Of a stretch of 64,000 nt of DNA, positions 1 through 57,293 are shown piece by piece. The DNA lies in assembly GCA_964609775.1 (NCBI GenBank), contig CAZSSJ010000002.1, forward strand, positions 19,260-83,259, read 5' to 3'. Each line of letters starts with the position of its first letter. Within the stretch, counting starts at the first letter, position 1. A program made the translations under genes and the position numbers. The stretch is from an uncultured Gammaproteobacteria bacterium (GTDB taxonomy: Bacteria; Patescibacteriota; Microgenomatia; JAMCZE01). The notes under the pieces were generated by a model, which saw nothing but the letters and a program-made list of their open reading frames with translations, made no database searches and had not been told where the DNA came from.

Positions 1-2
1 GG

Positions 3-398: not shown

Positions 399-1947
399 CC
401 AGCCAAAGCCACTGTCTCTAATTATCCTGGTAACCGTTCTCCTTGCGGCCTTCTTCCTTCGCACCTGGCCGACTCTGAGTGACACCACCCATTTTTCCTT
501 TGATCAGGGCCTGGACATGATCATGGCCAAACTGTTGATCGTCGATCACCAGATCAACTTAATCAGTCGCCACAGTGGACTTCAGGGCGTCTTGATGGGC
601 CCCCTCTGGACTTATTTTCTGGCCACCCCTTTTGCCCTTTCAGGTGGTCACCCCTCCGGCAACGTCATCTTCCTGTCTGTTTTTAATCTGGTCACCTCTG
701 TTCTGGCAACTGTGCTGGTCGGCCGGAAATTCGGCTTGACTGCCGGAGTTGTTACCGGACTTTTTTTTCTGTTCTCACCCTCCTTCATCACCGGTTCTCA
801 AGTAGTCCTTAGTCCTTATCCTCTAATACCCTTATTTATTTTTTTCCCCCTACTTGCCCACGAAACCCTAGTTAACAAAAGCAGTCGTTTCGCCTGGCTT
901 CTCATGCTGCTCTTGGGACTATACTTTCAATTCGAAGTCGGCTTTGCCATTTTTGCCCTTCTCGCTTTTGTTGTCCTTTTTGTTTTTTTCCACTCGTGGT
1001 GGCTTTTTAAAAAGCGGTCATTCTGGGCAGGCTGTGGGCTTTTTGTCTTGACATTTTTGCCCCAGATCCTTTTTGACCTTCGCCACCAATTTCTGATAAC
1101 CAGCGGTTTGTTAGCCTACTTTACTGGCAGTAATACTAGTCTTTACCAGAAGTCAGCTCCACTCATCATTCGCCTCGCTCAGCGATTATATTCATTCTAT
1201 GAAGACGCGACCGCAATGGCATTTTTTGGCCATTGGTCGGTGAATATTGCTCTTCTTCTTCTGGTGGTTTCCGGCTGGATAGTCGCTCTAAAGCATGACG
1301 CAAAAACCCATCGGAAATTTTTGCAAATGATCCTTTTGACATTGGCGTCTTTTTTTATCGGTTTTACCCTTTATCCTGGTCCGATTTGGGGTTGGTATCG
1401 AATTGGCCTACCGGCAATCTACATCTTTCTTGTTTCCATACCAACTGGCGTCCTTTGGCAGAGAATGTATCGTCTTCGGCCGTTAATTCTGATCGTTCTA
1501 ATCGCACTATTTTTGACTGGCGTCAAACCCTGGACTCTCTGGCACCTATATAAAAATCCAGGTGTTGGCGGAGTGGGGACACTCAATAATCAAAAAAAAG
1601 TCATCGACTACGTTTATTCTCAGGCAGAGGGAAAGCCGTTCAACTATCTCGTCTATACCCCGCCGGTCTATGACTACATCTGGCAATATGACTTTTGGTG
1701 GTACGGAAGACAAAAATATGGCTATCTTCCGACAAATTGGCAAATGAGTGTGCCCCTATTGGGAATCGGGGAACAATCCAAACCTCCTGCCACCAAAGAA
1801 CCTTTCTTTCTCATTATTGAGCCAAATACCGACCACCCCGACGAATCCGTCAATTGGAAGAAGACTTTAAAACTAGAGCCAGCAGATTCAAAAGCTACTC
1901 TTCCCGGAGGAATTATCGTCGAAAGTCGGCAAGGCGACAATTTATGA
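358..1947 (+). CDS. polytopic membrane protein, GT39/PMT_2-like putative glycosyltransferase (start could be 382)
   Basis: At least 10 hydrophobic helices are followed by a soluble C-terminal domain (…YVYSQAEGKPFNYLVYTPPVYDYIWQYDFWWYGRQKYGY) that resembles the C-terminal domains of the GT39-like paralogues downstream. Confidence 0.4.
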   Translation: MLTISTTAMRLSSHQPKPLSLIILVTVLLAAFFLRTWPTLSDTTHFSFDQGLDMIMAKLLIVDHQINLISRHSGLQGVLMGPLWTYFLATPFALSGGHPSGNVIFLSVFNLVTSVLATVLVGRKFGLTAGVVTGLFFLFSPSFITGSQVVLSPYPLIPLFIFFPLLAHETLVNKSSRFAWLLMLLLGLYFQFEVGFAIFALLAFVVLFVFFHSWWLFKKRSFWAGCGLFVLTFLPQILFDLRHQFLITSGLLAYFTGSNTSLYQKSAPLIIRLAQRLYSFYEDATAMAFFGHWSVNIALLLLVVSGWIVALKHDAKTHRKFLQMILLTLASFFIGFTLYPGPIWGWYRIGLPAIYIFLVSIPTGVLWQRMYRLRPLILIVLIALFLTGVKPWTLWHLYKNPGVGGVGTLNNQKKVIDYVYSQAEGKPFNYLVYTPPVYDYIWQYDFWWYGRQKYGYLPTNWQMSVPLLGIGEQSKPPATKEPFFLIIEPNTDHPDESVNWKKTLKLEPADSKATLPGGIIVESRQGDNL

Positions 1948-4010
1948 TCGGTGACTTCCTGCCACTGCAAACAAATCTTTTACCCTATTGGTTTTTTCCC
2001 TGGAACACTAATTCCTGGTCAGGCTTTACTCCCTTTATTTTCCACAAGGAACTATTAGCTATCGACGCTCTGCGCCAGATTTTTGTCTGGAAAGAATTTG
2101 CTTTTTCCCAAATCAGACTAGGTGGGTGGCCGCTCTGGAATCCCTACAGTTTTTCCGGTCAGCCGCTTTTGGCCAATTTCCAATCCTCGGTTTTCTATCC
2201 GTTGTCTTGGTTTTTTATGTTTCTGCCGCCCATGATTGCCTGGGCGGCTTATGTTTTTAGTCAGCCGCTCCTTTTAGTCACTTTTATGTTCTTCTGGATG
2301 CGACCAAAAGTGGGTGCCGTTGCCGCCCTTTTTGCCGCCCTCGCCCTTGCAACGGCCAGTTTTTTTGCCACCCGCTATTTCTGGGGAGTCTACGTTCATT
2401 CGCTGTTATGGATTCCTCTGGGGTTAGGCCTGATTGACCGCTACAAAGAAGCCAAAATCAAAACATCATCTTTCGTCGCCTCTTTTTCCCTGGTTTGTGT
2501 CTTAACGGTTCTGGGTGGTTATCCTCAGTTTGGCTTGTACGCCATTGCCCTTTTGGGAGCGTACTATTTGTATATTTTTGGCAAAAAGCGCCTGCTCCTC
2601 TTTCTCCTTTCCCTGATTTTGGCCTTGTTAATTTCCGCCGTCCAGTTAATCCCAACAGCCGAACTATACCGCTATTCGCTTCGTGAGGGAACTGCCTCAG
2701 CCCGGACCTTTAGCGATTCCCTCTTGTCTCCGAAATACCTTGCTACCATAGTTTACCCCGACATGTTTGGCAGTCCGGCAGTTAATGACTACACTGGAGG
2801 CAAAGACTACTCTGGTGTCAACGGCTATTTTGGCGTCGTCCCCTTTCTTCTGGCTTCGGGTGCTGCTATTTTCTTACGAAGGGACAGACAAGTTAGGTTT
2901 TGGATCGCCGTTGGAGCATTGGGGCTACTTCTTGCCTACGACAATCCTTTTGCTCGGCTACCTCAGGTGTTGCCCTTGCCCATCATAAGCAGCGGGAATG
3001 CGTGGCACAACCTTTTCTTTTTTCAGTTTGCCGGTGTCGTATTAGCCACAATTCTACTTACCAGGTTACCAAAGAGAGCCATTCTCATCTGTCTCCTGTT
3101 GACAACCTTCTTAGGCTTCTATTATTCACTGAAAGTGTCACCCTTCGGACAGACCAAATATTTTTATCCTCCCCACCCTCTTCTTTCTTGGCTAAGGCAA
3201 AATGCTGGCCTAGATCGGTTTTATGGTTATCGCAGTTCCCACTTTCTTTCTAATCTTTCCACCTACTATCGCATCTATAGTCCCGAGGGCTATGACAGTC
3301 TTTGGCCGTCTTGGTACGGAGAGTTACTTTCCTCCGCTGACAGAGGTAAAGTTCCTCCGGAAGTAAATCGGGCGGATGTCTCCGTGACTGATTGGGACAC
3401 TTCCTACCGGCGTAAATTGCTAAATCTTCTGGGGGTCAAATATTTTTTAGACAAATCTGATAAACCCGGCGGCGACCAAGGTCCAAACCTGGCCAAGTAC
3501 CCGGCCGGGCAATTTGTCTTAAGGAAACAATGGGGAGAAGTGTCCATCTATGAAAACAAAGAGGCCTTGCCGAGAGCTTTTTTGGCAGACGGCGTCATCT
3601 CTGCCCCAAAATCGGAAGTCATCGAGAAAATCTATTCTTTGCCCTCGCTTCGGACCATCATCTTGGATTCACCACCCGGCCTGGGGTCAAAAAAACTGAC
3701 CACCGGATCAGCGAGTATTAAAAAATATCTTCCCAATGAGGTAATCGTGACCACCAATTCCCCTGGTAATTCCCTCCTCTTTTTATCCGATACCTACTTC
3801 CCCGGTTGGGATGCTTTCGTAGACGGCCACAAAGCAAAAATCCTTCGGGCTGACTATGCCTTTCGGGCAGTCCCTGTTCCTCCCGGAAAAAATGAAGTAA
3901 GATTCATATATCAACCAAAATCATTTTTTCTTGGGATTTCTATGAGTTTATTAGGGAGCGCGATCTGGCTATGGCTGTTGTTAAAAAATTTTTTCAAGAA
4001 AACTGGCTAG
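1945..4010 (+). CDS. YfhO-family membrane glycosyltransferase (GT-C), paralogue 1
   Basis: Contains FFPWNTNSW…WPLWNPYSFSGQPLLANFQSSVFYP and the C-terminal …LFLSDTYFPGWDAFVDGHKAKILRADYAFRAVPVPPGKNEVRFIYQP; these are signature YfhO (PF09586) blocks. Confidence 0.75.
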
Positions 4011-6325
4011 TCATCTTTGCTCTGGGTGTCTCCAATCTTGTTTCTTTTTGGCAATTCTACCTTAAGGGTTTGTTACCCTTTCCCGGGGACCTTCTAGTTT
4101 CCTTTTTCTTTCCTTGGAACTCTGGAGGGTTTGTGGGCTTTGATTCCTGGACCACCCACAAGGAATACATCGCCTCCGACGCTCTCCGTGCCCTTTTCCC
4201 CTGGAAGGTCGAAGTCATCCGTCAATTCTTAAGCGGCAATTTTCCTTTGTGGAACCCCTTCAACTTTGCTGGTACACCGCTTCTGGCTGATTTCCAGTCC
4301 GGAGCCTTTTTTCCCACTAATCTTCTTTACGCCTTTCTGCCTCCTCTCACCGTCTGGATTCTCCAAGTGCTAGTTCTCTTGAGTCTGTTTGCCTTTTTTT
4401 CCTATCTGTTCCTGCGTGCCCTCAAACTCTCACCACTTGCCAGTGCTTTTGGAGCTGTTGTTTTGTCGAATTTACCCTATTTGGTCAACTGGCACGAGAT
4501 CCTCGTCGTGACGCAAAGTGCCCTCTTCTTGCCTCTGGATTTGTACCTACTTGAGAAATTTGCTCAAACAAAAAAAACTATTTATCTTTTTTTTCTGCCC
4601 CTTTTTTTGGCCTTCGCAATTTTTGCTGGCCATCCCCAGACAATCATTATGGTCTTCTTTCTCATCGGAAGTTATGCTCTTTTCCGCCGCTTGTCTTTGG
4701 GCAGAATTTTCCTAATTTTCGTAATCTCACTTCTTTTGGGTGCTGTCCAGTTGTTGCCGTCCTGGCAGTTTTATGAATTCTCGGCCCGGGAAGCAGGAGA
4801 CACGGCTAAACTTTTCCTTGACCACCTCTTCCCGTGGCGAAACGTAATAACCGCCCTAGCTCCGGATTTCTTTGGCAATCCGGTGACCGGAAACTTTTGG
4901 GGGTGGGATTATCACAACTCTCTTGCTTATATTGGTGTGACCGCTTTGTTCCTGGCCCTGTTTTCGTTCTTTTGGCAGTCCAGGAGAAGAGAGGTTGGCT
5001 TTTTTGCCCTGCTGGCACTTATTGGCTTGTTGCTGGCCACCTCTCCACTGGCCAACATTTTTCTCTTCTTTAAAATCCCGATTCTCTCCACCGGCATTGC
5101 CGCCAGGAATATTTTTTTCTGGCAGTTTTCTTTGGGAGTTCTCTCCGCTTTTGGTTTGGACTATCTCCTAAATAAGGTCCGACAAAGCAGGTCTCGGTGG
5201 CATTTTGCCCCCCTAATATTTCTTCTAGTTTTATATCTACTGCTTTGGGTTGTTGTCCTCACAAGCTCTTCCCCGGAGTTTCTTATAAGTCGCCATAATC
5301 TGATTCTCCCCACGGCCATCTTTATCCTGACAGCCATCCTGATTCTCGGCGTCATTGTCCAGCCAAAAATAGGAAAATATCTTCTCTTTGTGCTTTTAGC
5401 ATTGGCAATCTTTGAACAGGGGCGCTATTTTAATAAAATCGAACCCTTCGCTAGCCCCGCCTTTGTCTTTCCCGACCACCCGGTCCTGACTTTTTTGCAG
5501 GAAAATGCCGGAACCAACCGCTTTATCGGAGCAGGGACAGCCAAAATTGATAGCAACTTTGCCACCTACTACCGCATTTTTGACCCCCAGGGCTATGACC
5601 CACTCTATCTTCTTCGCTATGGCCAGCTGCTCGCGGCCTCAAAAAATGGCGGTAAAAAAGCGCCTGTCATCTCCCGGGCTGATGCGATGATCGCCAATTT
5701 GGACCGAAATGATGGCTTTAAAGACCGCTTACTCGATATTTTGGGAGTCAAATACGTCCTCGATAATGAAAATATGTCTGTCGCCAGAGACTGGGAACCG
5801 GGGACTCTTGAGACTGCAAACAACCGCCATCTGCTTGTTTGGCAGCAAGAGAACAAGTGGAAAATTTACGAGCGACAAACCGCCCTCCCCCGAACCTTTT
5901 TGGCCGGAAGCTATGAAGTTGCCTCCTCTGATGAGGCAATTTTGGCACGTCTCTTTGATCCAGACTTTGCTGCTCAAGACAAAATTATCTTGGAAAAAGA
6001 TCCCGGTTTTCCAATCACCAATCAAGGCTCTGCCGAGGCAGTAATCACTCATTATTCTCCCAATACCGTCACGATTCAGACCCGTTCCGACCACCCTCGG
6101 CTGCTTTTTCTTTCGGATAATTACTATCACGGTTGGCTAGCAACCCTTGACGGCCAAAAGGCGGAGATTTTTCGGGCTAACTACACTTTTCGCGCCGTTG
6201 CCGCCCCTTCCGGATCGCACGTGGTGGAATTTAGATATAGTCCGGAGTCATTTCGCCTTGGACTAGTTGTCAGCGTTCTGGGTTTGCTGCTATGGCTAAA
6301 ATTTTTGCGACCAACAAGAAGCTAA
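3971..6325 (+). CDS. YfhO-family membrane glycosyltransferase, paralogue 2
   Basis: FPGDLLVSFFFPWNSGGF…FPLWNPFNFAGTPLLADFQSGAFFP; C-terminus …YYHGWLATLDGQKAEIFRANYTFRAV. Confidence 0.75.
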   Translation: MAVVKKFFQENWLVIFALGVSNLVSFWQFYLKGLLPFPGDLLVSFFFPWNSGGFVGFDSWTTHKEYIASDALRALFPWKVEVIRQFLSGNFPLWNPFNFAGTPLLADFQSGAFFPTNLLYAFLPPLTVWILQVLVLLSLFAFFSYLFLRALKLSPLASAFGAVVLSNLPYLVNWHEILVVTQSALFLPLDLYLLEKFAQTKKTIYLFFLPLFLAFAIFAGHPQTIIMVFFLIGSYALFRRLSLGRIFLIFVISLLLGAVQLLPSWQFYEFSAREAGDTAKLFLDHLFPWRNVITALAPDFFGNPVTGNFWGWDYHNSLAYIGVTALFLALFSFFWQSRRREVGFFALLALIGLLLATSPLANIFLFFKIPILSTGIAARNIFFWQFSLGVLSAFGLDYLLNKVRQSRSRWHFAPLIFLLVLYLLLWVVVLTSSSPEFLISRHNLILPTAIFILTAILILGVIVQPKIGKYLLFVLLALAIFEQGRYFNKIEPFASPAFVFPDHPVLTFLQENAGTNRFIGAGTAKIDSNFATYYRIFDPQGYDPLYLLRYGQLLAASKNGGKKAPVISRADAMIANLDRNDGFKDRLLDILGVKYVLDNENMSVARDWEPGTLETANNRHLLVWQQENKWKIYERQTALPRTFLAGSYEVASSDEAILARLFDPDFAAQDKIILEKDPGFPITNQGSAEAVITHYSPNTVTIQTRSDHPRLLFLSDNYYHGWLATLDGQKAEIFRANYTFRAVAAPSGSHVVEFRYSPESFRLGLVVSVLGLLLWLKFLRPTRS

Positions 6326-8616
6326 TTCTGGTTTTCCTGTGCCTGTTAGCGGCCAATGTTGCAATTTTCTGGCAGTTCTATTTTCGTGGACTTTTGCCCT
6401 TTCCCGGCGATCTACTGGTGTCATTTTTCTTTCCCTGGAACTCTGGCGGCTTTGCCAATTTTGATCAGTGGACCACTCACAAAGAAGTCATCGCCGCCGA
6501 TGTCATTCGGCAAATGTATCCTTGGAAAGCCCTCCTAGTCAACGCCGTAAAGAACGGCACCTGGCCTCTGTGGAACCCCTACAATTTTTCTGGAACTCCG
6601 CTTCTGGCTAATCTTCAGTCATCCGTTTTCTTTCCGGCCAATGTTGTTTTTCTCTTTTTGCCCCGGCTTGTTTCCTGGATCAGTCTCGTCATTTTTCTCC
6701 CCCTCATTTTTTCCATTTTTTGCTATCTCTTTTTACGCTCTTTAAACATTAGCCGGCTCGCCAGTCTCCTCGGAGCAATCATCCTGTCAAATATTTCTTA
6801 TTTGCTCGTCTGGTCAGAGCAATTGGTCTTTATTCAAAGTGTTCTTTTCCTGCCACTCTCCCTGTTGCTAATTAATTATTATTCAGTTTCAAAAAAACCA
6901 CTTCTTCTCCTCCTTTTGCCCCTAACCTTATCTTTTGCCGTTTTTGGCGGTCACATCCAAACAGTTGTCTATGTTTGTGTTGTGGTAACTTTATATGCCC
7001 TTTTCCGCCGCCTGCCAATCAAATACCTTTTTATCATCGCTCTTTCGACCATAGGCCTGTCATCACTACAACTTCTTCCTTCTCTCGAACTGTATCTCTA
7101 TTCAGCTCGCGAGGGAAATGCCTCTGCCCAGTTGTTTCTTGAATCTGTCCTTCCGATCCAAAATCTCGCCACCATTCTTGCTCCGGATTTCTTCGGCAAC
7201 CCCGCCACCGGCAATTTTTTCGGCTCTGACTATGGCAATAATCAGGTCTATTTCGGAGTATTGGCAGCATTTTTTTCCGTCGTTGGACTTTATTACGGAC
7301 TGAAGGGAAAAAAGAGTTTGACGCTTTTTTTTGCTCTCGTTGGCCTAGGAGGTCTGGTGTTTTCTCTAGATCCTTTTGCTCGCTTGTTTCTTGTTTTTAA
7401 AATCCCGGTTCTTTCTTCAGCGGTCGCTGCCCGAGGAATTTTCATTTTTCAATTTTGTTTTGCCGTCGTGGCCGCTTTGGGAATTGATCAATTTCTGGCA
7501 AACACAAGGAAACGAGCAATAATTACTATTTTTTTCCTCTTTCTCGGCTTCTACCTGCTCCTATATTTTTCCACCAAGTTAATTCCCAATCACGCCACTA
7601 TTGCTCAAAAGAACCTAGTTCTGCCCTTGCTGGTCCTACTTTCCACTGGTGTGACCGCCTTTCTCTCCCGTTTTCGAAGGCAAGCAGCCGTTGTTCTCAT
7701 TCTAATTGCCACTTTGGAATATGCTTATTTTTTCAACAAATTTGCCCCCTTCGCCAGGAGAGAGTTTGTCTTTCCTGGGCATCCGGTTTTCAATTTTTTG
7801 ACGACGCGGGCGGAAGTTGACCGGTTTTACGGCTTCGGGACAGCCTATGTTGACAATAATTTTGCCTCCTACTACCGCGTCTTTTCCGCCGAGGGCTATG
7901 ACTCGCTATATATCAAGCGCTATGGTGAACTTCTCGCCTCCACCAAAAACGGCCAACTTCCCCCAGATGTTCCCCGTTCTGACGCCCTCTTTACAAGTCA
8001 AGACAACGTCTTCCGTAACCGGCTCTTTGATCTTTTAGGCGTCAAGTATATCCTTGATAAAAATGATAATCCCCAGTCAAATTGGGAACCGGAGAATGAC
8101 AAATTCCCCGAGGAGCGCTATAAGCTTGTCTGGCAGAAACTGAAATGGAAAGCCTATGAGAGAAAAACCGCCTTGCCTCGGGTATTTCTCGCCGATTCAT
8201 TCCTCGTTACCAATTCCGACCAGCTGATATTGTCAAAAATGTTTGACCCCCGATTCGATCTGGCAGCCACCGTGATCCTTGAAAAGAACCCCCCTTGGGA
8301 ACTTGCTCCGGGAGGGAAAAGTGAGGCAAAAATGAGCAACTACCGGGAAAACATGGTTGTCATTGAGACACAAGCTGACAAACCCAAAGCACTTTTCTTA
8401 TCAGATACCTACTACCCCGGTTGGAAAGCTACTCTTGATGGAAAACCAATAGATATCTATCGAGCCGATTATATTTTTAGATCCGTCATGGTTCCGTCTG
8501 GAAAACATACTGTCATTTTTAACTACGATCCTGAAACTTTTAAATTTGGGCTTGCCCTTTCAGGATTATCAGCCGCTCTTCTCTTGATAACCATCTTGCG
8601 AAAATCGCATCCATGA
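6292..8616 (+). CDS. YfhO-family membrane glycosyltransferase, paralogue 3
   Basis: The N-terminus (FWQFYFRGLLPFPGDLLVSFFFPWNSGGF) is almost identical at the protein level to paralogue 2 but diverged in DNA; WPLWNPYNFSGTPLLANLQSSVFFP; C-terminus …YYPGWKATLDGKPIDIYRADYIFRSV. Confidence 0.75.
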   Translation: MAKIFATNKKLILVFLCLLAANVAIFWQFYFRGLLPFPGDLLVSFFFPWNSGGFANFDQWTTHKEVIAADVIRQMYPWKALLVNAVKNGTWPLWNPYNFSGTPLLANLQSSVFFPANVVFLFLPRLVSWISLVIFLPLIFSIFCYLFLRSLNISRLASLLGAIILSNISYLLVWSEQLVFIQSVLFLPLSLLLINYYSVSKKPLLLLLLPLTLSFAVFGGHIQTVVYVCVVVTLYALFRRLPIKYLFIIALSTIGLSSLQLLPSLELYLYSAREGNASAQLFLESVLPIQNLATILAPDFFGNPATGNFFGSDYGNNQVYFGVLAAFFSVVGLYYGLKGKKSLTLFFALVGLGGLVFSLDPFARLFLVFKIPVLSSAVAARGIFIFQFCFAVVAALGIDQFLANTRKRAIITIFFLFLGFYLLLYFSTKLIPNHATIAQKNLVLPLLVLLSTGVTAFLSRFRRQAAVVLILIATLEYAYFFNKFAPFARREFVFPGHPVFNFLTTRAEVDRFYGFGTAYVDNNFASYYRVFSAEGYDSLYIKRYGELLASTKNGQLPPDVPRSDALFTSQDNVFRNRLFDLLGVKYILDKNDNPQSNWEPENDKFPEERYKLVWQKLKWKAYERKTALPRVFLADSFLVTNSDQLILSKMFDPRFDLAATVILEKNPPWELAPGGKSEAKMSNYRENMVVIETQADKPKALFLSDTYYPGWKATLDGKPIDIYRADYIFRSVMVPSGKHTVIFNYDPETFKFGLALSGLSAALLLITILRKSHP

Positions 8617-10103
8617 CCAAAAATACTTTCTTTTTTCTCATTATCCTCCTCCTCCTGCTCATCCCCATTGTCGTCCCTCTTGTCCAGCCCGGTTTCTTTG
8701 TCTCTGATGATGGCGACTGGATGGTTATCAGGCTATCCGCTTTCCACGAAACCCTCAAAACCGGCCAGTTCCCGGTTCGCTTTTTAGAAAGGCTCAATCA
8801 TGGCTACGGCTACCCGGTGACTGACTTTCTTTATCCTCTACCTTTCTATTTGGGAGAAATAATCCATCTCCTGGGCTTCAATTTTGTCGATTCAGTAAAA
8901 ATTCTTTTTGGCATGAGTTTTCTTCTCGGGGCTTTTTCCATGTTTTTCTACGCCAAAGATAAGTGGGGGAATCAGATAGGAATTATTGCTGCCGTTTTTT
9001 ACACTTATTTTCCCTACCGAATTTTTGACGTCTACAAACGTGGCTCGCTGGGAGAATCAGTCGCTTTTGTCTTTATCCCTCTGGTCTTTCTTTTTTATGA
9101 CCGCTTAGTCACCACCAAAAATCTAATATATCTTTCGTTTGGCGCTCTAGCCACAGCAGCCATGATAACCTCTCACAATACCGTTGCTTTTCTTACGTTA
9201 CTTGTCCTCATCGCATATATAACTACTAATCTTTTCTCAAAGACCGAAAAAAAATGGCTAATACTGTCCTCTATGTCTTATCTTGGTCTCTCTTTGACTC
9301 TTTCCGCCTTTTTTGTTATTCCGGCCCTTGTTGACCTCCAGTTCACTAAGACAAGGTTAATCACAATTTCTGATCCAACACGGTTCTTTCTTTCGTTAGA
9401 CAATCTTTTAAGTCTAGCCGGCATCCCAATAATGTTGATCACCGGTGCAGCCATACACCTAATTCGTAAGGGATCACGCGGGGTGGTATTTTGGACAGCT
9501 ATATCAATAGTCTCAATCCTGATGGCCATGTCCGTTTCTGATGTCCTTTGGGCAAATCTATCGTCACTTTCTAAACTAGTCCAATTTCCTTGGCGCTTTC
9601 TTTCGATTACGGCTCTAGCCGGAGCAATCTTAACCGGATTTTTGTTAAGCCACTACAGAATCAAGATATTATTCCCCCTCCTCATAATCTTGCCTGTCAT
9701 TTTCTCAGGAATATTGACACTAAAAATAGACAGAACTTTTCACCCAGAAAGCTATTACACTACCAACGACGACAGCACTACTGTCAAGAACGAATATATG
9801 CCCATTTGGGTAAAAAAAGACCCCACCAACCTTCCTAAGGAAAAAATTGCCTGGATAGACTCAAATCTTGTTCGAGTCAACACTGTATACTTCCCCGGTT
9901 GGGCAGCCTATGTCAATGGGCAAGAAAGGGAAATAATCTACCAGGACGATGGCCTAATCAAATTCGCTGCCCGACCAGACGACAAAATTGAACTTCGCTT
10001 TGAAGAAACTCCACTGCGGGCGGAAGCTAACCTTGTCACCATTTTGGGAATCTTCCTGGCCTTGGCTTTAATACTTTTGCCCCCCAAAAGTCAAATCACA
10101 TGA
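8613..10103 (+). CDS. YfhO-related integral membrane protein of the COG5617 / '6-pyruvoyl-tetrahydropterin-synthase-related' type, putative GT-C
   Basis: DDGDWMVIRLSAFHETLKTGQFPVRFLERLNHGYGYPVTDFLYPLPFYLGEIIHLLG; C-terminal motif NTVYFPGWAAYVNGQ; many TM helices. Confidence 0.5.
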   Translation: MTKNTFFFLIILLLLLIPIVVPLVQPGFFVSDDGDWMVIRLSAFHETLKTGQFPVRFLERLNHGYGYPVTDFLYPLPFYLGEIIHLLGFNFVDSVKILFGMSFLLGAFSMFFYAKDKWGNQIGIIAAVFYTYFPYRIFDVYKRGSLGESVAFVFIPLVFLFYDRLVTTKNLIYLSFGALATAAMITSHNTVAFLTLLVLIAYITTNLFSKTEKKWLILSSMSYLGLSLTLSAFFVIPALVDLQFTKTRLITISDPTRFFLSLDNLLSLAGIPIMLITGAAIHLIRKGSRGVVFWTAISIVSILMAMSVSDVLWANLSSLSKLVQFPWRFLSITALAGAILTGFLLSHYRIKILFPLLIILPVIFSGILTLKIDRTFHPESYYTTNDDSTTVKNEYMPIWVKKDPTNLPKEKIAWIDSNLVRVNTVYFPGWAAYVNGQEREIIYQDDGLIKFAARPDDKIELRFEETPLRAEANLVTILGIFLALALILLPPKSQIT

Positions 10104-11749: not shown

Positions 11750-13454
11750 CCCTCTTGTTGTTCTCTTTATCGCCTCATTTTGGTCCTGGAAGCCGCTTCT
11801 GGCCTCCGGCTTTTTTACAATTCATGACAACCAGCAGATCGCCCGGCTGTTTGAATTAAATAAAGCTCTTCTTGCTGGTCAGTTTCCCGTTCGCTGGGTG
11901 CCGGATCTGGGTTTTAGCTTTGGCTACCCGCTCTTTAATTTCTATCCGCCCCTGATTTATTATCTCGGCGAACTCTTTCATCTGTTGCTCGGGACAGGAT
12001 TCATTGACTCAATTAAGATAGTTTGGTTCGTCGCCCTGGTGGGATCGGGGATTGCCATGTACTTCTTGGCGAAAGAGTACTTTGGCAGAGCAGGAGGACT
12101 CGTTGCCGCGATGTTTTATGTTTACGCTCCCTACCACGCCGTCGACGCCTACGTCCGCGGGTCTTTGGCCGAACTTTTTTCTTTTGTTTGGCTCCCCCTC
12201 ATCCTGCTGGCATTGTATAAAATTGTGACTTTGCCAATAAGCTACGATCGTTGGATTTTGGCAAGCGGTATTCTCCTTGGCCTGCTGATGATCACCCACA
12301 ACCTCATTTTTCTCCCTTTTGTGGGAATATCAGCCCTTTGGTATTTTGCTCTAGTATTAATTTATCGCCGTAACGAACCGGTCCGTTATACTTTATACTT
12401 TATACTTTATACAGCCCTTTGTTTCGCTCTATCAGCCTTTTTCTGGCTGCCGGCGCTGGCTGAAAAACAATTCACCCTCGTTGACCAACTCCTGATTAAG
12501 AATCTGGCTTCCTACCAAATCCATTTTGTCTGCCCGCAGCAGTTATGGAACAGTCCCTGGGGTTTTGGCGGTTCGACTGCAGGTTGTCTTGATGGCCTGT
12601 CATTCAAACTCGGCAAGCTGCACATCTTGGCAGCCATAGCCTCTTTCGGGGCTGTCGCCTACCTCTGGCTTAAAGCTCACAAAAAGCTAGCGTTAGTAAT
12701 TCTTATATCTTATTTCTTATTTTTTATATCCCTGTTCATGACTACTGACTATTCAAAAATTTTGTGGGACAATTTTCCCCCTCTTTGGTACCTTCAGTTC
12801 CCCTGGCGTTTTCTGGAATTTGCCACCCTTTTTGCCGCGCTAATTGCGGGGAGTATCTTGGCGTTGGTCAAAAATATCCCCCTTAAAATATTGGTTACCA
12901 TAACGCTAATTTCGGCAATTCTCTACATCGAAGCTAAAAACTTCGTTCCCCAAACCCACCTCTTCACTGACACAGACGACCAAGAAACTTCTGATGAGCA
13001 AATTAAGTGGGTCATCAGTTCAACTTCGTTTGAGTATCTCCCAAAAGAAGTTGCCACTAGAGTCACAGACCTCGGGACCGTTTGGGTCGATATTGATCGA
13101 TCAAAAATTCCCCCCCGAAAGTATCAAGTTCTCTCCGGAAACTTGCAAAGCACCGAGGAAATATTTCTTCCCCATCGTTTCAAACTCACTGGCCAATTTA
13201 CAAACGAGACGACAATTCAAATTAATGTGGCAAACTTTCCCGGGTGGGAAGTGTGGCTCGATGGTTCCGAAGCACGCATCAGGGATAACAATGCCTATAA
13301 ATTGATCACTATCAATGTCCCCCCAGGAAACCATACACTAACTGGGCAATTTACCAATACCTGGCCGAGGTCCCTAGGTAACACCATTTCCATCATTGCA
13401 CTCATCGCGTTAGCCCTTTACTTTGGAAAATATGGAATTAGAAGAAGTTCTTAA
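11718..13454 (+). CDS. COG5617/PTPS-related-type membrane protein, paralogue 2 (the ORF could start at 11676)
   Basis: FTIHDNQQIARLFELNKALLAGQFPVRWVPDLGFSFGYPLFNFYPPLIYYLGELFHLL; C-terminus NVANFPGWEVWLDGSEARI. Confidence 0.5.
   Translation: MKFWQKLLSLSPLVVLFIASFWSWKPLLASGFFTIHDNQQIARLFELNKALLAGQFPVRWVPDLGFSFGYPLFNFYPPLIYYLGELFHLLLGTGFIDSIKIVWFVALVGSGIAMYFLAKEYFGRAGGLVAAMFYVYAPYHAVDAYVRGSLAELFSFVWLPLILLALYKIVTLPISYDRWILASGILLGLLMITHNLIFLPFVGISALWYFALVLIYRRNEPVRYTLYFILYTALCFALSAFFWLPALAEKQFTLVDQLLIKNLASYQIHFVCPQQLWNSPWGFGGSTAGCLDGLSFKLGKLHILAAIASFGAVAYLWLKAHKKLALVILISYFLFFISLFMTTDYSKILWDNFPPLWYLQFPWRFLEFATLFAALIAGSILALVKNIPLKILVTITLISAILYIEAKNFVPQTHLFTDTDDQETSDEQIKWVISSTSFEYLPKEVATRVTDLGTVWVDIDRSKIPPRKYQVLSGNLQSTEEIFLPHRFKLTGQFTNETTIQINVANFPGWEVWLDGSEARIRDNNAYKLITINVPPGNHTLTGQFTNTWPRSLGNTISIIALIALALYFGKYGIRRSS
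12386..12412. repeat. heptanucleotide tandem repeat (TTATACT) x3 plus a partial fourth copy, in frame inside the CDS
   Basis: Read directly: gttatactttatactttatactttatacag, encoding …RYTLYFILYT…. Confidence 0.8.
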
Positions 13455-14877
13455 TCGGACCGTAAAAAGCGTCATCGCGCTGACGAGCCGCAGCGTTGTC
13501 TTGCTGCTGATTCAGGCCGTGGCTTATTCTCTTCTCATCGCTTTTCTGGGAGCCCAGGAGATCGGCATTTTTATTGTCGTCTCGGCAATTTTGCGCGTCT
13601 TCACTTTCTTTACCGATTTGGGATTGGGCGCCGCCCTCATCCAGAAAAAAGAAAATTTAGACCAGGATGACCTGCGCTCTGCCTTTACTATTCAAACCGC
13701 ACTGGTCCTCATAATTATCGCCGTTGCCTTTGCGCTCACCCCGCTTGTCAGATCCTATGCCAATTTGGACCCGGCCGGAGTTTTTCTTTACCAGGTTCTC
13801 GCCTTCACTTTGCTCATTTCTTCCTTAAAAATGATCCCCTCGATTCTTCTGGAGAGGCAGCTGCGCTTTGAAAAACAAATCATTCCCCAAATCGTCGAGG
13901 CATTGGTATTCAACAGCTTGGTGGTCATTCTGGCGGCCAAACATTTTGGTGTCGCCTCCTATTCATGGGCCATTCTAGTTTCCTCTCTCGCCGGATTGCC
14001 CGTCTACTACCTAATTTCGCCGTGGAGAATTTCCCTGGGATTGTCGAAAGATGTGGCCAAACACCTCATTCGCTATGGCCTCCCTTTCCAAGGCAAGAGT
14101 GTCCTGGCGATAATAAAAGATGATCTTCTGGTCTTCTTTCTTTCCGGAATTGTTGGCACCGCCGGAATTGGCTACTGGGGGACGGCGCAAAAATTTGCCT
14201 ATTATCCCTTCCGTCTGCTCGTCGACACTCTCACTAAAGTCACTTTTCCCGCTTATTCGCGAATTCAACTGGAAAAAGAAGCCTTAAGAATTGGTATAGA
14301 AAAATCGCTACTTGCCGTCAGCCTCCTGCTCTTTCCGGTGCTCACCTTAATCGCCGTGCTGGCCCACAATCTTGTTTATTTAATCCCCAAATATCAAAAG
14401 TGGGAGCCGTCACTGCCTTCTCTCTATTTCCTCTGTGCGGGGGCGGCCGTCTCTGCCTTGTCAAACATTTTGGTGAACGCCCTTGACGCTACCGGACACG
14501 TCAAAACAACTCTGGGGTTGATGGTAATGTGGATAGTATTAACCTGGGTTGGAACTTTGGTCCTCGTAGCCAAGTTTGGTTTTACCGGAATAGCTATGGC
14601 CTCGTTCGTGGTCGCTCTCACCATTATTCTTACCATCTACTTGGTTAAACGGGTTGTCAATTTTCGCTTTTTGGGAAGTATCTTCAAGCCATTTTTGGGT
14701 TCCCTACTTATGGGGCTTTCGGTGTTTGCCCTCATTCAAGTTCTGCCAATCTCCTTCCCGGCTCTTCTTCTTGAAGGTATTGCTGGTGCTATAATTTATT
14801 TGGGTGCGATGTATCTGCTCGCCCGCAAGGAACTATTAGCGGATCTGAGAATCGTCATCAAAACTTTCAGAAAATGA
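13423..14877 (+). CDS. Wzx-type oligosaccharide/lipid-linked glycan flippase (MOP superfamily)
   Basis: About 14 TM helices; N-terminus …VIALTSRSVVLLLIQAVAYSLLIAFLGAQEIGIFIVVSAILRVFTFFTDLGLGAALIQ… is typical of polysaccharide biosynthesis proteins (Polysacc_synt). Confidence 0.65.
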   Translation: MENMELEEVLNRTVKSVIALTSRSVVLLLIQAVAYSLLIAFLGAQEIGIFIVVSAILRVFTFFTDLGLGAALIQKKENLDQDDLRSAFTIQTALVLIIIAVAFALTPLVRSYANLDPAGVFLYQVLAFTLLISSLKMIPSILLERQLRFEKQIIPQIVEALVFNSLVVILAAKHFGVASYSWAILVSSLAGLPVYYLISPWRISLGLSKDVAKHLIRYGLPFQGKSVLAIIKDDLLVFFLSGIVGTAGIGYWGTAQKFAYYPFRLLVDTLTKVTFPAYSRIQLEKEALRIGIEKSLLAVSLLLFPVLTLIAVLAHNLVYLIPKYQKWEPSLPSLYFLCAGAAVSALSNILVNALDATGHVKTTLGLMVMWIVLTWVGTLVLVAKFGFTGIAMASFVVALTIILTIYLVKRVVNFRFLGSIFKPFLGSLLMGLSVFALIQVLPISFPALLLEGIAGAIIYLGAMYLLARKELLADLRIVIKTFRK

Positions 14878-15767: not shown

Positions 15768-15770
15768 TCT

Positions 15771-16700
15771 ATGGAAAAAACTGAACTCTCAATTGCCACC
15801 ATTCTCCATAACGAGGAGGCGAACGTTGTCGAACTCCACCGGAGATTAAGCACGGTCCTAAAAACCCTCAATAAAACCCATGAAATTATTTTGGTAGATG
15901 ATGGCAGCACTGACAGGACACTTGATAAACTCAAGACGCTTCGCCAAAAGGACAGATCCATCAAAATCATCTCTCTCTCGCGAAACTTCGGTATCGAGGC
16001 CGCCGCCACTGCCGCCCTAGATCACACCAGCGGAGAAATGGTTGTTCTCATGGACGGCGACCTTCAGGACGCCCCGGAATTCATTCCCTCACTCCTGAAT
16101 AAAATTGGACAGGGCTACGACGTCGTCTACGCCCAGCACCCAAAGAGAAAAGACACCCTCGTGAAGCAAGCACTTTTTGGTAGCTTTTATCGGCTGATGG
16201 ACAAACTGGCCGACTATAAATTTCCCGTTGACGTGGGTCATTTTTCCGTGATGAGACGGCCGGTTGTCGACGTGTTGACGCAAATGACGGAAAGAAATCG
16301 GTTTATTGCCGGACTTCGGGCTTGGGTGGGCTTCAAACAAACAGGAATCCTGTATGAAAAACAGGCCAGGTTTGCCGGCAAACCACCACAAACATTTAAA
16401 AAGTTGCTCAAAATGGGCTTTGATGCTTTGTTTTCTTTCTCGTACATCCCACTTCGAGTTGCAACATTAATGGGTCTATTGGTCGCTATTGGAACAATTA
16501 TTGTGATCATTAACGTTTTGTATCAAAAATTCGTCGTCAACACTGCTATTATCGGATGGGCTGGACCCATGCTCTCAATATTGATCATCGGAGGTGTGCA
16601 ACTTTTCATTCTCGGCATAATCGGGGAATATTTAGCCAGAATCTATGATGAAGTCAAAAGGCGTCCCTACTATATCGTCTCTGAGAAAATTGGTTTCTAA
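15771..16700 (+). CDS. GT2 polyprenyl-phosphate glycosyltransferase (GtrB/ArnC/DPM1-like) with C-terminal TM helices
   Basis: LSIATILHNEEANV…ILVDDGSTDRT…VVLMDGDLQDAPEFIP…, then two C-terminal hydrophobic helices (LMGLLVAIGTIIVIINV…ILIIGGVQLFILGIIGEY). This is the classic C55-P-sugar synthase architecture. Confidence 0.75.
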   Translation: MEKTELSIATILHNEEANVVELHRRLSTVLKTLNKTHEIILVDDGSTDRTLDKLKTLRQKDRSIKIISLSRNFGIEAAATAALDHTSGEMVVLMDGDLQDAPEFIPSLLNKIGQGYDVVYAQHPKRKDTLVKQALFGSFYRLMDKLADYKFPVDVGHFSVMRRPVVDVLTQMTERNRFIAGLRAWVGFKQTGILYEKQARFAGKPPQTFKKLLKMGFDALFSFSYIPLRVATLMGLLVAIGTIIVIINVLYQKFVVNTAIIGWAGPMLSILIIGGVQLFILGIIGEYLARIYDEVKRRPYYIVSEKIGF

Positions 16701-18378: not shown

Positions 18379-18380
18379 CT

Positions 18381-19187: not shown

Positions 19188-19273
19188 TCATCATCTTCGA
19201 ATTTGCAACAGTTTTGATGATTAATACACATCGAAATGCGGTGAACGCATAATATTTACCTTATGATGGGTAT

Positions 19274-20350
19274 ATGAAAGTTGGCATCTATAGCCCCTAT
19301 TTGGACACTTTGGGTGGGGGAGAGCGCTACATTTTGACCGCTGCAGAATTTTTCCTCCACAGAAAAGATAGTGTCGACATTTTCTGGGATAAGGACAGCG
19401 ACTTGCAAGATATGGCCGCCCGTTTCGGACTTGATCTGAAAGGTGCCAAGTTTGTCTCCAATCTTTTTTCCGGAAACTTCAGTTTTTGGCAAAGACTTAG
19501 AAAAAGTTACCGATACGACTTAATTCTGGTTCTCTCGGACGGTAGCATCCCTTTGACGCTGGCAAAGAAAAACTTCATCCATCTTCAAGTCCCATTTCAA
19601 AAATCCAACCGGCCAAAAATAGTCAACCGCCTTAAGCTACTGACATATAAAGCCGTCCTCTGCAATTCATATTTCACTAAAAAGATTATCGATCAGACCT
19701 ATGGCATAACCAGTAGTGTTCTCTATCCGCCTGTTGATGTTAACCGTTTCCAGCCGGGGAAAAAAGAAAAAGTGATTCTTTCGGTGGGTCGCTTCTTTGC
19801 AGCCAGGCACCTGCACAATTTTGCCCCAAAAAAGCACCAAGAAATGATTAGCGCCTTTGAGGAGCTAATTGATTCCGGTCTTAAAGACTGGAAACTTCGC
19901 TTGCTAGGAGCCAATTCTCCCGATCAGCAAAGTTCCCTTGAGCAGTTAAAAAAAATTGCCCAAAACTACCCGATTGAAATTTCGTCCAACGTTGACTATG
20001 AAGATTTAAAGACCAGCTTCGCCCAGGCCTCTATATATTGGCACGCCGCCGGTTTTGGTGAGGATCTGGATAAACACCCAGAAAGAGCCGAGCACTTCGG
20101 CATTACCACTGTTGAAGCGATGGCCTCGGGCGCTGTCCCGGTTGTCTTTGCCGGCGGCGGCCAAAAGGAGATCATTCAGGACTCGGTCAATGGTTTGTTT
20201 TGGCAAACCCCAGGCGAGCTTCAGACCAAAACTATTCAACTCATCAAAAATCAATCTCTAACACGGAAACTAGCTGAAAAAGCCCTCATCAGGTCACGCG
20301 ATTTTAGTAAGCAAAAATTTTTCCGTTCTTTGGAAGACCTCTTGAAATGA
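19274..20350 (+). CDS. GT4 (Glycos_transf_1) glycosyltransferase
   Basis: The C-terminal domain carries the E-x7-E block: …EHFGITTVEAMASGAVPVVFAGGGQKEII…. Confidence 0.7.
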   Translation: MKVGIYSPYLDTLGGGERYILTAAEFFLHRKDSVDIFWDKDSDLQDMAARFGLDLKGAKFVSNLFSGNFSFWQRLRKSYRYDLILVLSDGSIPLTLAKKNFIHLQVPFQKSNRPKIVNRLKLLTYKAVLCNSYFTKKIIDQTYGITSSVLYPPVDVNRFQPGKKEKVILSVGRFFAARHLHNFAPKKHQEMISAFEELIDSGLKDWKLRLLGANSPDQQSSLEQLKKIAQNYPIEISSNVDYEDLKTSFAQASIYWHAAGFGEDLDKHPERAEHFGITTVEAMASGAVPVVFAGGGQKEIIQDSVNGLFWQTPGELQTKTIQLIKNQSLTRKLAEKALIRSRDFSKQKFFRSLEDLLK

Positions 20351-24859: not shown

Positions 24860-24866
24860 GACACCC

Positions 24867-57284: not shown

Positions 57285-57293
57285 ACTTTTGCT

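What the first reader, a model, noticed from the sequence alone, without database searches (positions are those of the whole stretch)
1945..8616. Three tandem YfhO paralogues whose proteins are conserved but whose DNA has diverged
Paralogues 2 and 3 share almost identical N-terminal peptides (FWQFY[LF][KR]GLLPFPGDLLVSFFFPWNSGGF), yet the underlying DNA differs at many synonymous sites. This indicates an old duplication kept by selection rather than a recent amplification, and so implies distinct functions such as different acceptors or donors. A fourth copy lies at 20347..22557.
Basis: seen in the sequence. Interest (0 to 1): 0.6.

Follow-up and report, generated by a model that had tools for sequence, protein, structure and literature searches.

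The report
Ancient tandem YfhO glycosyltransferase paralogues
A groundwater candidate-phyla-radiation (CPR) bacterium carries three adjacent, anciently duplicated membrane sugar-transferase genes of the YfhO family plus a fourth nearby; all look functional, which makes this an ordinary gene-family expansion with one unusual truncated subtype.

Summary
Four genes, Y1 (1944-4010), Y2 (3971-6325), Y3 (6292-8616) and Y4 (20347-22557), all match Pfam YfhO above its cut-off, and the Y1 and Y3 models have a GT-C glycosyltransferase fold. "Conserved proteins" is overstated: the pairs are 32-47% identical, and only the 29-residue N-terminal peptide of Y2 and Y3 is nearly identical (27/29). Synonymous sites are saturated (pS about 0.75), and codon sharing at identical residues is at or near chance. 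This rules out an assembly artefact, a recent amplification and gene conversion. It also makes dN/dS between the paralogues impossible to estimate.

The duplications are old. Related Microgenomates genomes carry the same Y1-Y2-Y3 order. The Y1 and Y2 clades each have 100% bootstrap support, and Y2 and Y3 are never sisters. Against the nearest relative, dN is about 0.2 with dS saturated, so omega is below roughly 0.1, equally for Y1 and Y2.

New here: Y1 belongs to a small conserved clade that lacks the first transmembrane helix but keeps the invariant Asp. The whole Y4 clade lacks the C-terminal helix. The genes sit in a 62-kb cluster with polyprenyl-phosphate-sugar synthases.

Distinct donors or acceptors are plausible but not shown. 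Interest is modest.

The parts
1944..4010 (+). Y1: a YfhO-family GT-C glycosyltransferase of the subtype without the first transmembrane helix (TM1). It starts directly in the first outer loop, has TN in place of the GD of the PFPGD motif, and lacks a roughly 70-aa segment (two TM helices) in the variable TM module.
   Evidence: Pfam YfhO 67.6 bits. Alignments. All full-length members of the clade (P0121-P0137) start at M..LPL[PQH]TN and have no TM1. Loss of TM1 is confined to this clade among 116 homologues. AF2 model pLDDT 81.5. Foldseek matches AftD, STT3 and ArnT.
3971..6325 (+). Y2: a canonical YfhO (TM1, outer loop, TM core, beta-rich outer domain, C-terminal TM). It belongs to an extra duplicate clade found in only some relatives.
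   Evidence: Pfam YfhO 71 bits. The Y2 clade of 7 clusters has 100% bootstrap support. It is 72% identical to its orthologue in L081.
6292..8616 (+). Y3: a canonical YfhO, the copy closest to the single canonical YfhO of related genomes.
   Evidence: Pfam YfhO 95 bits. It equals UY21_C0001G0069 of Microgenomates bacterium GW2011_GWA1_48_10. AF2 model pLDDT 87.5, pTM 0.89. Foldseek matches PglB, AftD, STT3, ArnT and Emb.
20347..22557 (+). Y4: a YfhO of a different, older clade whose members all lack the C-terminal TM helix. Its stop overlaps (ATGA) the start of a GT2 gene.
   Evidence: Pfam YfhO 79 bits. Separate clade in the tree. C-terminal alignment of the clade.
4046..4132 (+). Y2 copy of the conserved N-terminal peptide FWQFYLKGLLPFPGDLLVSFFFPWNSGGF, at the start of the first outer loop.
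   Evidence: Codon sharing is at chance level.
6367..6453 (+). Y3 copy of the same peptide, FWQFYFRGLLPFPGDLLVSFFFPWNSGGF.
3971..4010 (+). 40-nt overlap between the end of Y1 and the start of Y2.
   Evidence: Overlaps of 31-58 nt recur between tandem YfhO genes in L001, L081, L082, L083 and L084.
6292..6325 (+). 34-nt overlap between the end of Y2 and the start of Y3.
8613..10103 (+). PTPS_related membrane protein immediately after Y3. It is a distant YfhO relative and a conserved neighbour.
   Evidence: Pfam PF10131 43.6 bits. hhalign against the YfhO alignment gives probability 92.9 and E 3.8e-7. The same neighbour is present in L001 and L082-L084.
13423..14877 (+). Wzx-type flippase (Polysacc_synt_3) in the same gene string.
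   Evidence: Its position is conserved in L001, L002 and L084.
15771..16700 (+). GT2 enzyme of the PgfS/ArnC/CsbB type (the sequence ends in two hydrophobic stretches, as in GtrB/ArnC-type enzymes). It is the likely maker of the lipid-linked sugar donor.
   Evidence: NCBIfam PgfS 249 bits and ArnC 151 bits, both full length but below the equivalog cut-offs. Pfam GT2.
22554..23237 (+). GT2 enzyme of the AglJ/dolichyl-phosphate-hexose-transferase type, coupled to Y4.
   Evidence: The ATGA junction is shown.

Best explanation
The window comes from a Microgenomates (candidate phyla radiation, CPR) bacterium. It holds four intact, anciently diverged genes for YfhO-family GT-C glycosyltransferases inside a cluster of about 62 kb for making and decorating a cell-envelope glycan.

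Proposed mechanism (inferred by analogy). Cytoplasmic GT2 enzymes load single sugars onto polyprenyl phosphate. The lipid-linked sugar is flipped across the membrane. Each YfhO enzyme then transfers it, outside the membrane, onto a glycan or protein acceptor. Catalysis would use the first outer loop, which carries an invariant Asp (D70 in Y3, D41 in Y1). Acceptor handling would use the beta-rich outer domain.

History of the tandem trio. It arose by two old in-place duplications. The first gave a subtype without TM1 (Y1) next to a canonical copy; this pair is found in at least six lineages. The second split the canonical copy into Y2 and Y3. Y4 is a much older lineage without the C-terminal helix and has its own GT2 partner.

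Selection and function. All four copies are under strong purifying selection, so they are not redundant. The most likely division of labour is different donor sugars or different acceptor positions.

Status of each step. Shown: family membership, fold, age of the duplications, synteny, constraint and the architectural differences. Inferred: the enzyme chemistry, the identity of donors and acceptors, and the division of labour.
For: Family and fold: Pfam YfhO is above cut-off for all four genes. The confident AF2 models of Y3 and Y1 match PglB, AftD, STT3, ArnT and Emb.

Age of the duplications:
- pS is 0.75-0.79 between paralogues.
- Codon sharing at identical residues is at or near chance.
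- There is no long DNA repeat.
- The Y1-Y2-Y3 order is conserved in L001, and L081 has Y1 and Y2 followed by the start of a third gene at the contig end.
- The Y1-type plus canonical pair is present in L082, L083 and L084.
- NJ bootstrap support is 100% for the Y1 clade, 100% for the Y2 clade and 0% for Y2+Y3 as sisters.

Constraint: against the 71%-identical orthologues, dN is 0.206 (Y1) and 0.195 (Y2) with dS saturated. D70 is invariant in 116 of 116 homologues, including Y1. Other near-invariant residues are kept as well.

Differences between the copies:
- Loss of TM1 is confined to the Y1 clade.
- 17 sites are conserved within the Y1 clade but differ from the canonical copies, and they are enriched in the first outer loop (7 of 99 residues).
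- The whole Y4 clade lacks the last TM helix.

Donor supply: there is a PgfS/ArnC-like GT2, plus three GT2 genes resembling AglJ, PpgS or dolichyl-phosphate-hexose transferases, and a Wzx-like flippase.

Precedent in the literature: CsbB-YfhO glycosylates lipoteichoic or wall teichoic acid (PMC5836110). In S. mutans, PgfS works with two co-operonic YfhO paralogues, PgfM1 and PgfM2, whose mutants have different phenotypes (PMC12041528).
Against: - No biochemical or expression data exist for this uncultured organism.
- Donor, acceptor and stereochemistry are unknown.
- Omega is only a bound, because dS is saturated even against the closest relative.
- Y2 differs from the other canonical copies at only two strongly conserved sites, so specialisation of Y2 against Y3 is weakly supported.
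- The trees are neighbour-joining on corrected p-distances. Deep branch order, such as Y1 with the second Chisholmbacteria copy (30% bootstrap), is unresolved.
- The catalytic role of D70 rests on invariance and on its position in the first outer loop. I could not map it residue by residue onto a solved GT-C active site.
- No GtrA-type flippase was identified in the window. There was no dedicated search for short ORFs, though every ORF of 150 aa or more outside a larger gene was scanned against Pfam.
Confidence: 0.75

Rival explanations
1. Y1 is not an independent enzyme. It is an obligate partner of the canonical YfhO encoded next to it, forming a heteromer like Pmt1-Pmt2 or EmbA-EmbB. The loss of TM1 is tolerated or exploited at the interface between the two.
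For: The Y1-type gene always lies directly upstream of a canonical YfhO, with a 40-58-nt overlap, in the window and in L001, L081, L082, L083 and L084. This suggests coupled translation. The first 45 residues of Y1 are modelled with pLDDT below 50 on their own. Loss of TM1 is rare among YfhO relatives.
Against: No interaction evidence exists, and no multimer prediction tool was available. Overlapping genes are common throughout this cluster whatever the gene family. L002 has Y2 and Y3 without a Y1-type gene. Y1 keeps the invariant Asp and the other core residues, so it could act alone.
Confidence: 0.15
2. Y1 is a catalytically dead pseudo-enzyme, kept as an acceptor-binding or scaffolding subunit. 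It lost TM1 and has Asn where Y2 and Y3 have the Asp of the PFPGD motif.
For: The GD-to-TN change and the absence of TM1 are fixed across the Y1 clade. The sites that distinguish the clade cluster in the first outer loop.
Against: The PFPGD Asp (D40) is not universally conserved. 24 of 116 homologues, including full-length clades that have TM1, carry N, T, K or another residue there. D70 is invariant in all 116, including Y1. Other near-invariant residues (K64, W94-N95-P96, Q109, Q223, D299, R511) are kept in Y1. Y1 evolves no faster than Y2.
Confidence: 0.05
3. The copies are redundant and slowly decaying, or are kept only for dosage.
For: Y1 lacks TM1 and about 70 internal residues, and Y4 lacks the last helix. 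At first sight these look like truncations.
Against: Each 'truncation' is a conserved feature of a clade, not a lesion. TM1 is absent from all full-length members of the Y1 clade, and the last helix is absent from the whole Y4 clade. The deletion is shared with a 71%-identical relative. The ORFs are intact although synonymous sites are saturated. dN against orthologues is 0.2 with dS saturated. Dosage copies would be expected to stay similar, but these are 32-47% identical.
Confidence: 0.03
4. The array is an assembly artefact or a recent amplification of a single gene.
For: None beyond the tandem arrangement.
Against: DNA identity is 43-54% between the copies. No repeat is longer than 148 nt, and the repeats found are 66-81% identical. 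The same multi-copy layout occurs in independent assemblies from other samples.
Confidence: 0.01

Closest known systems
CsbB-YfhO (Bacillus subtilis, Staphylococcus aureus) and Lmo2550-Lmo1079 (Listeria): three-component glycosylation of teichoic acids
   Same: Same Pfam family (PF09586). Y2 and Y3 have the same overall architecture: many TM helices with a large outer domain between the last two. They sit in the same gene string as a GT2 enzyme of the polyprenyl-phosphate-sugar synthase type (PMC5836110, PMC8035078).
   Different: Sequence similarity to the Firmicutes-based models is low: Pfam scores are 68-95 bits, and no NCBIfam model matches. There are four copies in 21 kb rather than one. 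No GtrA/GtcA-type flippase was identified. Nothing in the window points to teichoic acid as the acceptor. Y1 and Y4 depart from the canonical architecture.
[quoted passage not shown]
   Same: Two YfhO-domain paralogues sit in one operon with a PgfS-type GT2, and their mutants have different phenotypes (PMC12041528). The GT2 at 15771-16700 aligns over the full length of the PgfS model (249 bits).
   Different: The GT2 score is below the PgfS equivalog cut-off of 500 bits. I did not look for target proteins or Ser/Thr-rich acceptors. The surrounding cluster (Wzx, Wzm/Wzt, many GT4 genes) points more to a polysaccharide.
EmbC-EmbA-EmbB of mycobacteria
   Same: Three tandem GT-C paralogues retained over a long time, each with its own acceptor (established knowledge of the family). 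Emb and AftD are among the Foldseek matches of Y3 and Y1. They likewise belong to a large set of GT-C enzymes that build a wall glycan outside the membrane.
   Different: A different GT-C family (no YfhO domain), about 10% sequence identity, and a different outer-domain arrangement. Heterodimer formation is known for EmbA-EmbB and is only speculated here.
Pmt1-Pmt2 protein O-mannosyltransferase heterodimer (yeast)
   Same: Paralogous GT-C enzymes that work as an obligate pair. This is a model for the Y1 plus canonical-neighbour hypothesis.
   Different: A different family (PMT). Both subunits keep TM1. There is no interaction evidence here.

Membership tests
YfhO family (Pfam PF09586) | Significant match to the family profile above the curated cut-off | tested here: met
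   Y1 67.6, Y2 71, Y3 95 and Y4 79 bits against a cut-off of 28.5. The precomputed annotation of homologues agrees.
YfhO family (Pfam PF09586) | About 13 TM helices with a large outer domain between the last two (as described for B. subtilis YfhO, PMC5836110) | tested here: met
   Met for Y2 and Y3: the Y3 model has TM1 at 2-25, a TM core up to 484, a beta-rich domain at 485-747 and a last TM at 748-772. Only partly met for Y1 (no TM1, two fewer TM helices) and for Y4 (no last TM).
YfhO family (Pfam PF09586) | Transfer of a sugar from a polyprenyl-phosphate-sugar to an acceptor outside the membrane | not testable with these tools
   This needs biochemistry or genetics. The organism is uncultured.
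GT-C glycosyltransferase superfamily | GT-C membrane fold | tested here: met
   Foldseek of the Y3 model matches PglB (E 2e-5), AftD, STT3, ArnT and EmbA/B. The Y1 model matches AftD (E 5e-6), STT3, ArnT, DPY19 and AftA. TM-scores are modest (0.3-0.45), as expected across GT-C families.
GT-C glycosyltransferase superfamily | Conserved acidic residue in the first outer loop | tested here: inconclusive
GT-C glycosyltransferase superfamily | TM1 preceding the catalytic loop, as part of the conserved N-terminal module | tested here: not met
   Not met for Y1 and its clade only. There is no room for a separate TM1 ORF upstream in L082-L084, where the gaps are 22-54 nt. Met for Y2, Y3 and Y4.
Three-component transmembrane glycosylation system (GT-A + flippase + GT-C) | A polyprenyl-phosphate glycosyltransferase of the GtrB/CsbB/PgfS/ArnC type encoded nearby | tested here: met
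   The GT2 at 15771-16700 aligns over the full length of the PgfS (249 bits) and ArnC (151 bits) models, below their equivalog cut-offs. The GT2 genes at 22554-23237, 35326-36075 and 42104-42784 resemble AglJ, dolichyl-phosphate-hexose transferase or PpgS.
Three-component transmembrane glycosylation system (GT-A + flippase + GT-C) | A small GtrA/GtcA-family flippase | tested here: not met
   No GtrA hit appeared among the ORFs scanned, which covered every ORF of 150 aa or more outside a larger gene. The gene map leaves no gap above about 410 bp. ORFs shorter than 150 aa were not scanned. A Wzx-type flippase (13423-14877) is present instead. A flippase could be encoded elsewhere in the genome.

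The most novel reading that the evidence does not exclude
The Y1 clade would be a previously undescribed kind of GT-C protein. It has lost the otherwise universal first transmembrane helix and begins directly with the catalytic outer loop. It would work only as a translationally coupled heteromer with the canonical YfhO encoded next to it. The tandem array would then encode one multi-subunit glycosyltransferase machine rather than three independent enzymes.
Probability: 0.15. Interest if true: 0.55.

Novelty: new member of a known kind. Interest (0 to 1): 0.3.

Why it matters
YfhO enzymes are known from Firmicutes, where they decorate teichoic acids and surface proteins. This case shows the family has diversified anciently in CPR bacteria, whose envelope chemistry is essentially unknown and probably mediates attachment to hosts.

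Four YfhO genes, three PTPS_related relatives and many PMT_2-type genes lie in one string of about 62 kb. That suggests an elaborate glycan assembled outside the membrane, in a lineage generally described as having reduced genomes.

The conserved subtype without TM1 is a small structural curiosity. It could inform how GT-C enzymes insert into the membrane and pair up. None of this overturns current understanding.

Tried and rejected
1. Nei-Gojobori pS is 0.75-0.79, so dS is undefined or above 3.8. The same holds against the closest orthologues at 71% amino-acid identity. Only an upper bound on omega can be given.
2. Gene conversion as the cause of the near-identical N-terminal peptide. Rejected: 10 of 25 codons are the same against 9.3 expected by chance.
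3. Y1 as a dead enzyme because the PFPGD Asp is Asn. Weakened: that Asp varies in many full-length clades, while D70 is invariant.
4. Y1 and Y4 as truncated pseudogenes. Rejected: both features are conserved across their clades.
5. A TM1 for Y1 encoded by an upstream ORF or reached by a frameshift. Rejected: the upstream gaps are 22-54 nt or the upstream gene is on the opposite strand in L082-L084. The in-frame upstream extension in the window is not hydrophobic.
6. PDB sequence search with Y3. There is no solved relative.
8. Promoter and terminator scan of 1-20000. It gave only intragenic consensus matches, slightly above the shuffled background, which say nothing about operon structure.
9. 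tRNA and Rfam scans of the window found nothing.
10. Literature search for YfhO in Patescibacteria found no paper in the library. The general CPR envelope papers that were listed say nothing on this gene family.


Full report
**What is there.** The window matches contig UY21_C0001 (140 kb) of "Microgenomates group bacterium GW2011_GWA1_48_10", a candidate phyla radiation (CPR) bacterium. Y3 and Y2 are identical to the deposited proteins G0069 and G0070, and Y1 to G0071. ORF listing gives three head-to-tail + strand genes and a fourth further on: Y1 1944..4010 (688 aa), Y2 3971..6325 (784 aa), Y3 6292..8616 (774 aa) and Y4 20347..22557 (736 aa). The ATG at 1944 overlaps the TGA of the upstream ORF. 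Y1/Y2 overlap by 40 nt and Y2/Y3 by 34 nt. All four proteins match Pfam PF09586 (YfhO) at 68-95 bits against a cut-off of 28.5.

**Checking the observation.**
- 27 of 29 residues and 67 of 87 nucleotides are identical. 15 of the 27 identical residues use different codons.
- Excluding Met and Trp, 10 of 25 codons are shared against 9.3 expected if synonymous codons were drawn at random from local codon usage. This patch therefore shows no sign of gene conversion.
- Gene-wide, the paralogues are only moderately similar: Y2/Y3 47%, Y1/Y2 37%, Y1/Y3 38%, and Y4 against the others 32-34% amino-acid identity. Nucleotide identity is 43-54%.
- Direct-repeat search finds only patches of at most 148 nt at 66-81% identity, all under conserved protein motifs.

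The title's "proteins are conserved" applies to motifs, not to the whole proteins.

**Age and selection.** Nei-Gojobori pS between the paralogues is 0.75-0.79, which is saturated, and dN is 0.49-0.83. I used comparative evidence instead.

Synteny:
- A related genome (L001, GCA_027371575.1; L003 has identical gene coordinates offset by 39 nt and identical scores) has the same string: a PMT_2-like gene, YfhO(743), YfhO(about 790), YfhO(790), PTPS_related, a flippase, GT2, GT2, an unassigned membrane protein, GT2 and GT4.
- The closest relative found (L081) has a 688-aa Y1 orthologue (71% identical) and a Y2 orthologue (72% identical), followed by the start of a third gene at the contig end.
- L082, L083 and L084 have a Y1-type gene followed by one canonical YfhO and then PTPS_related.
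- L002 has Y2-type and Y3-type genes only.

Phylogeny:
- Neighbour-joining trees place Y1, Y2 and Y3 each with orthologues from other genomes, and Y4 in a separate clade with second YfhO copies of Levybacteria and related lineages.
- With 200 bootstraps, the Y1 clade has 100% support, the Y2 clade (7 clusters) 100%, all canonical copies including Y2 100%, and Y2+Y3 as sisters 0%.

Rates:
- Against the L081 orthologues, dN is 0.206 (Y1) and 0.195 (Y2) while pS is still about 0.75. Omega is therefore at most about 0.1 and is equal for the two.
- Orthologue distances to L001 are likewise equal for Y1, Y2 and Y3.

The duplications predate several speciation events, and every copy is under purifying selection. 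An assembly artefact, a recent amplification and decay of redundant copies are all excluded.

**Structure and active site.**
- The AF2 model of Y3 (pLDDT 87.5, pTM 0.89) has five parts: TM1 (2-25), a first outer loop of about 100 residues, a TM core up to residue 484, a beta-rich domain (485-747) and a final TM helix (748-772). This is the architecture described for B. subtilis YfhO (PMC5836110).
- Foldseek against the PDB returns only other GT-C families, namely PglB, AftD, STT3, ArnT and EmbA/B, at E values from 2e-5 to 1e-2. No YfhO structure has been solved.
- The Y1 model (pLDDT 81.5) matches the same set.
- Across 116 homologues from 80 loci, the Asp of the PFPGD motif (D40) is present in only 92. 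D70, also in the first outer loop, is invariant in all 116, including Y1 (as D41) and Y4.

**What distinguishes the copies.**
- Y1 clade. It comprises 17 clusters at 90% identity (P0121-P0137), separated from all other hits by a score gap from 565 to 424 bits. Every full-length member starts directly at M..LPL[PQH]TN..P.W.FPW. That means no TM1, and TN where the canonical copies have GD.
- Rarity of TM1 loss. Among the 116 aligned homologues it is unique to this clade. Among the top 150 of 71,394 relatives in the 1.84-billion-protein representative library, only P0134, P0137 and P0241 begin at the first profile positions, with P0356 a possible fourth.
- No hidden TM1. The upstream gaps of 22-54 nt in L082-L084 leave no room for a separate TM1 gene.
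- Topology of Y1. Its 95-residue N-terminal tail has no net charge, and the short loop after the first TM carries Arg and Lys. This follows directly from the sequence and fits a tail located outside the membrane.
- Internal deletion. Y1 and its 71% relative P0122 also lack about 70 residues, equal to two TM helices of the variable module, so topology is preserved.
- Sites distinguishing Y1. Seventeen positions are conserved within the Y1 clade but differ from the conserved canonical residue: 7 in the 99-residue first loop, 7 in the 360-residue TM core and 3 in the 263-residue outer domain.
- Y2 against the canonical copies. Only two such positions differ (Q74A, Y479R), so evidence for specialisation of Y2 against Y3 is thin.
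- Y4 clade. Every member ends just before the final TM helix.

**Context.** All ORFs of 150 aa or more outside larger genes, up to 62 kb, are on the + strand except one (34475-35122, PaaX/Cas2-like). Nearly all of them are glycan-related. The content is as follows.
- GT-C-type genes above the Pfam cut-offs: YfhO x4, PTPS_related x2, PMT_2 x6, GT87 x1 and PIG-V-like x1.
- Weaker or unassigned membrane proteins: three weak PMT_2 hits and four polytopic proteins without a Pfam match. One of the four (11676-13454) is a PTPS_related paralogue (E 8e-58).
- Link between families: PTPS_related proteins are distant YfhO relatives (hhalign probability 92.9).
- Donor synthesis: the GT2 at 15771-16700 aligns over the full length of the PgfS (249 bits) and ArnC (151 bits) models. 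The GT2 genes at 22554-23237 (coupled to Y4), 35326-36075 and 42104-42784 resemble AglJ, dolichyl-phosphate-hexose transferases or PpgS. All scores are below the equivalog cut-offs.
- Export and tailoring: a Wzx-type flippase (13423-14877), a Wzm/Wzt ABC exporter (56472-58574), many GT4 genes, methyltransferases and an acyltransferase.
- Not found: a GtrA-type flippase. ORFs shorter than 150 aa were not scanned.

**Most likely mechanism.** I infer this by analogy with CsbB-YfhO and PgfS-PgfM1/PgfM2 (PMC5836110, PMC8035078, PMC12041528). GT2 enzymes make several polyprenyl-phosphate monosaccharides, which are then flipped across the membrane. The YfhO enzymes and the other GT-C enzymes add these sugars, outside the membrane, to an exported polymer or to surface proteins. 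The four YfhO enzymes are non-redundant, and they most likely differ in donor sugar or acceptor position. This is best supported for Y1 (changes in the catalytic loop) and Y4 (its own GT2 partner, a different architecture), and least for Y2 against Y3. In S. mutans the two co-operonic YfhO paralogues give different mutant phenotypes, which is a precedent.

**Rivals.**
- A heteromer of Y1 with its canonical neighbour is possible. The adjacency and the 40-58-nt overlaps are conserved, and the N-terminus of Y1 is poorly modelled on its own. It remains untested.
- A catalytically dead Y1 is unlikely, because the invariant residues are retained and its evolutionary rate is unchanged.
- Decay, a dosage role and an assembly artefact are rejected.

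**Novelty and score.** These are new members of a known family in a lineage where the family has not been discussed. The paper library holds no paper that mentions both YfhO and Patescibacteria. The clade without TM1 is a modest architectural variant that deserves a topology or multimer test. A specialist would not be surprised by tandem GT-C paralogues; embCAB and pgfM1/M2 are precedents. I score interest at 0.3.

Noticed in passing
window 358-62154: Almost the whole window is one + strand glycan super-cluster. It holds at least 14 GT-C-type genes above the Pfam cut-offs (YfhO x4, PTPS_related x2, PMT_2 x6, GT87, PIG-V-like), up to 7 more weak or unassigned polytopic membrane proteins, about 9 GT2 genes and about 9 GT4 genes. 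This is striking for a lineage generally described as having reduced genomes.
   Followed up: partly
window 23183-34478: A second tandem paralogue array: six PMT_2-like genes (23183, 24867, 26810, 29717, 31249, 32907) interrupted by a GT87-like gene (28399-29778). Their N-terminal motifs are similar (for example LRLYRL...PPSL.WDE.S.GYNAYS). The array is analogous to the YfhO array, but I did not analyse it for age or orthology.
   Followed up: no
window 8613-10103, 11676-13454, 37536-39206: Three PTPS_related-type membrane proteins. They are distant YfhO relatives (hhalign probability 92.9) and share the C-terminal YFPGW..(V/L)(D/N)G motif with YfhO. One of them directly follows the canonical YfhO in the window and in at least 11 of the related Microgenomates loci.
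   Followed up: partly
window 34475-35122 (- strand): The only minus-strand gene within the first 62 kb. It has a PaaX_M/Cas2-like domain (62.8 bits) and may be a regulator sitting between two halves of the cluster.
   Followed up: no
window 15771-16700, 22554-23237, 35326-36075, 42104-42784: Four GT2 genes that resemble polyprenyl-phosphate-sugar synthases (PgfS/ArnC-like, AglJ-like, dolichyl-phosphate-hexose-transferase-like, PpgS-like). They imply several different lipid-linked monosaccharide donors.
   Followed up: partly
window 56472-58574: A Wzm/Wzt-type ABC exporter pair (ABC2_membrane; ABC_tran plus a Wzt_C-like domain). It suggests an ABC-transporter-dependent polymer as the possible acceptor scaffold. 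An acyltransferase_3 gene (55257-56462) and a PIG-L deacetylase gene (60277-60915) lie nearby.
   Followed up: no
window 3140-3200 (Y1, about residues 400-417) against Y2 and Y3: Y1 and its 71% relative P0122 lack about 70 residues (two TM helices of the variable module) that the other Y1-clade members keep. P0128 and P0130 carry a different deletion, of about 29 residues, in the outer domain.
   Followed up: partly
whole window: GC skew and AT skew are persistently negative on the coding strand (GC skew about -0.1 to -0.2 over most of 1-48 kb). Nearly every gene is on the + strand. The likely cause is the T- and C-rich codons of membrane proteins, not a replication signal. I did not test this.
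   Followed up: no
window 26403-26809: The largest intergenic gap in the cluster (about 408 bp), in the middle of the PMT_2 array. I did not examine it for a promoter, a small ORF or an RNA, apart from the negative Rfam and tRNA scans.
   Followed up: no
representative proteins P0317 (3051 aa) and P0374 (1608 aa): Two giant proteins from the public collection contain a YfhO-like module embedded far from the N-terminus (residues 869-1547 and 882-1600). They are possible fusions of GT-C enzymes with other domains.
   Followed up: no
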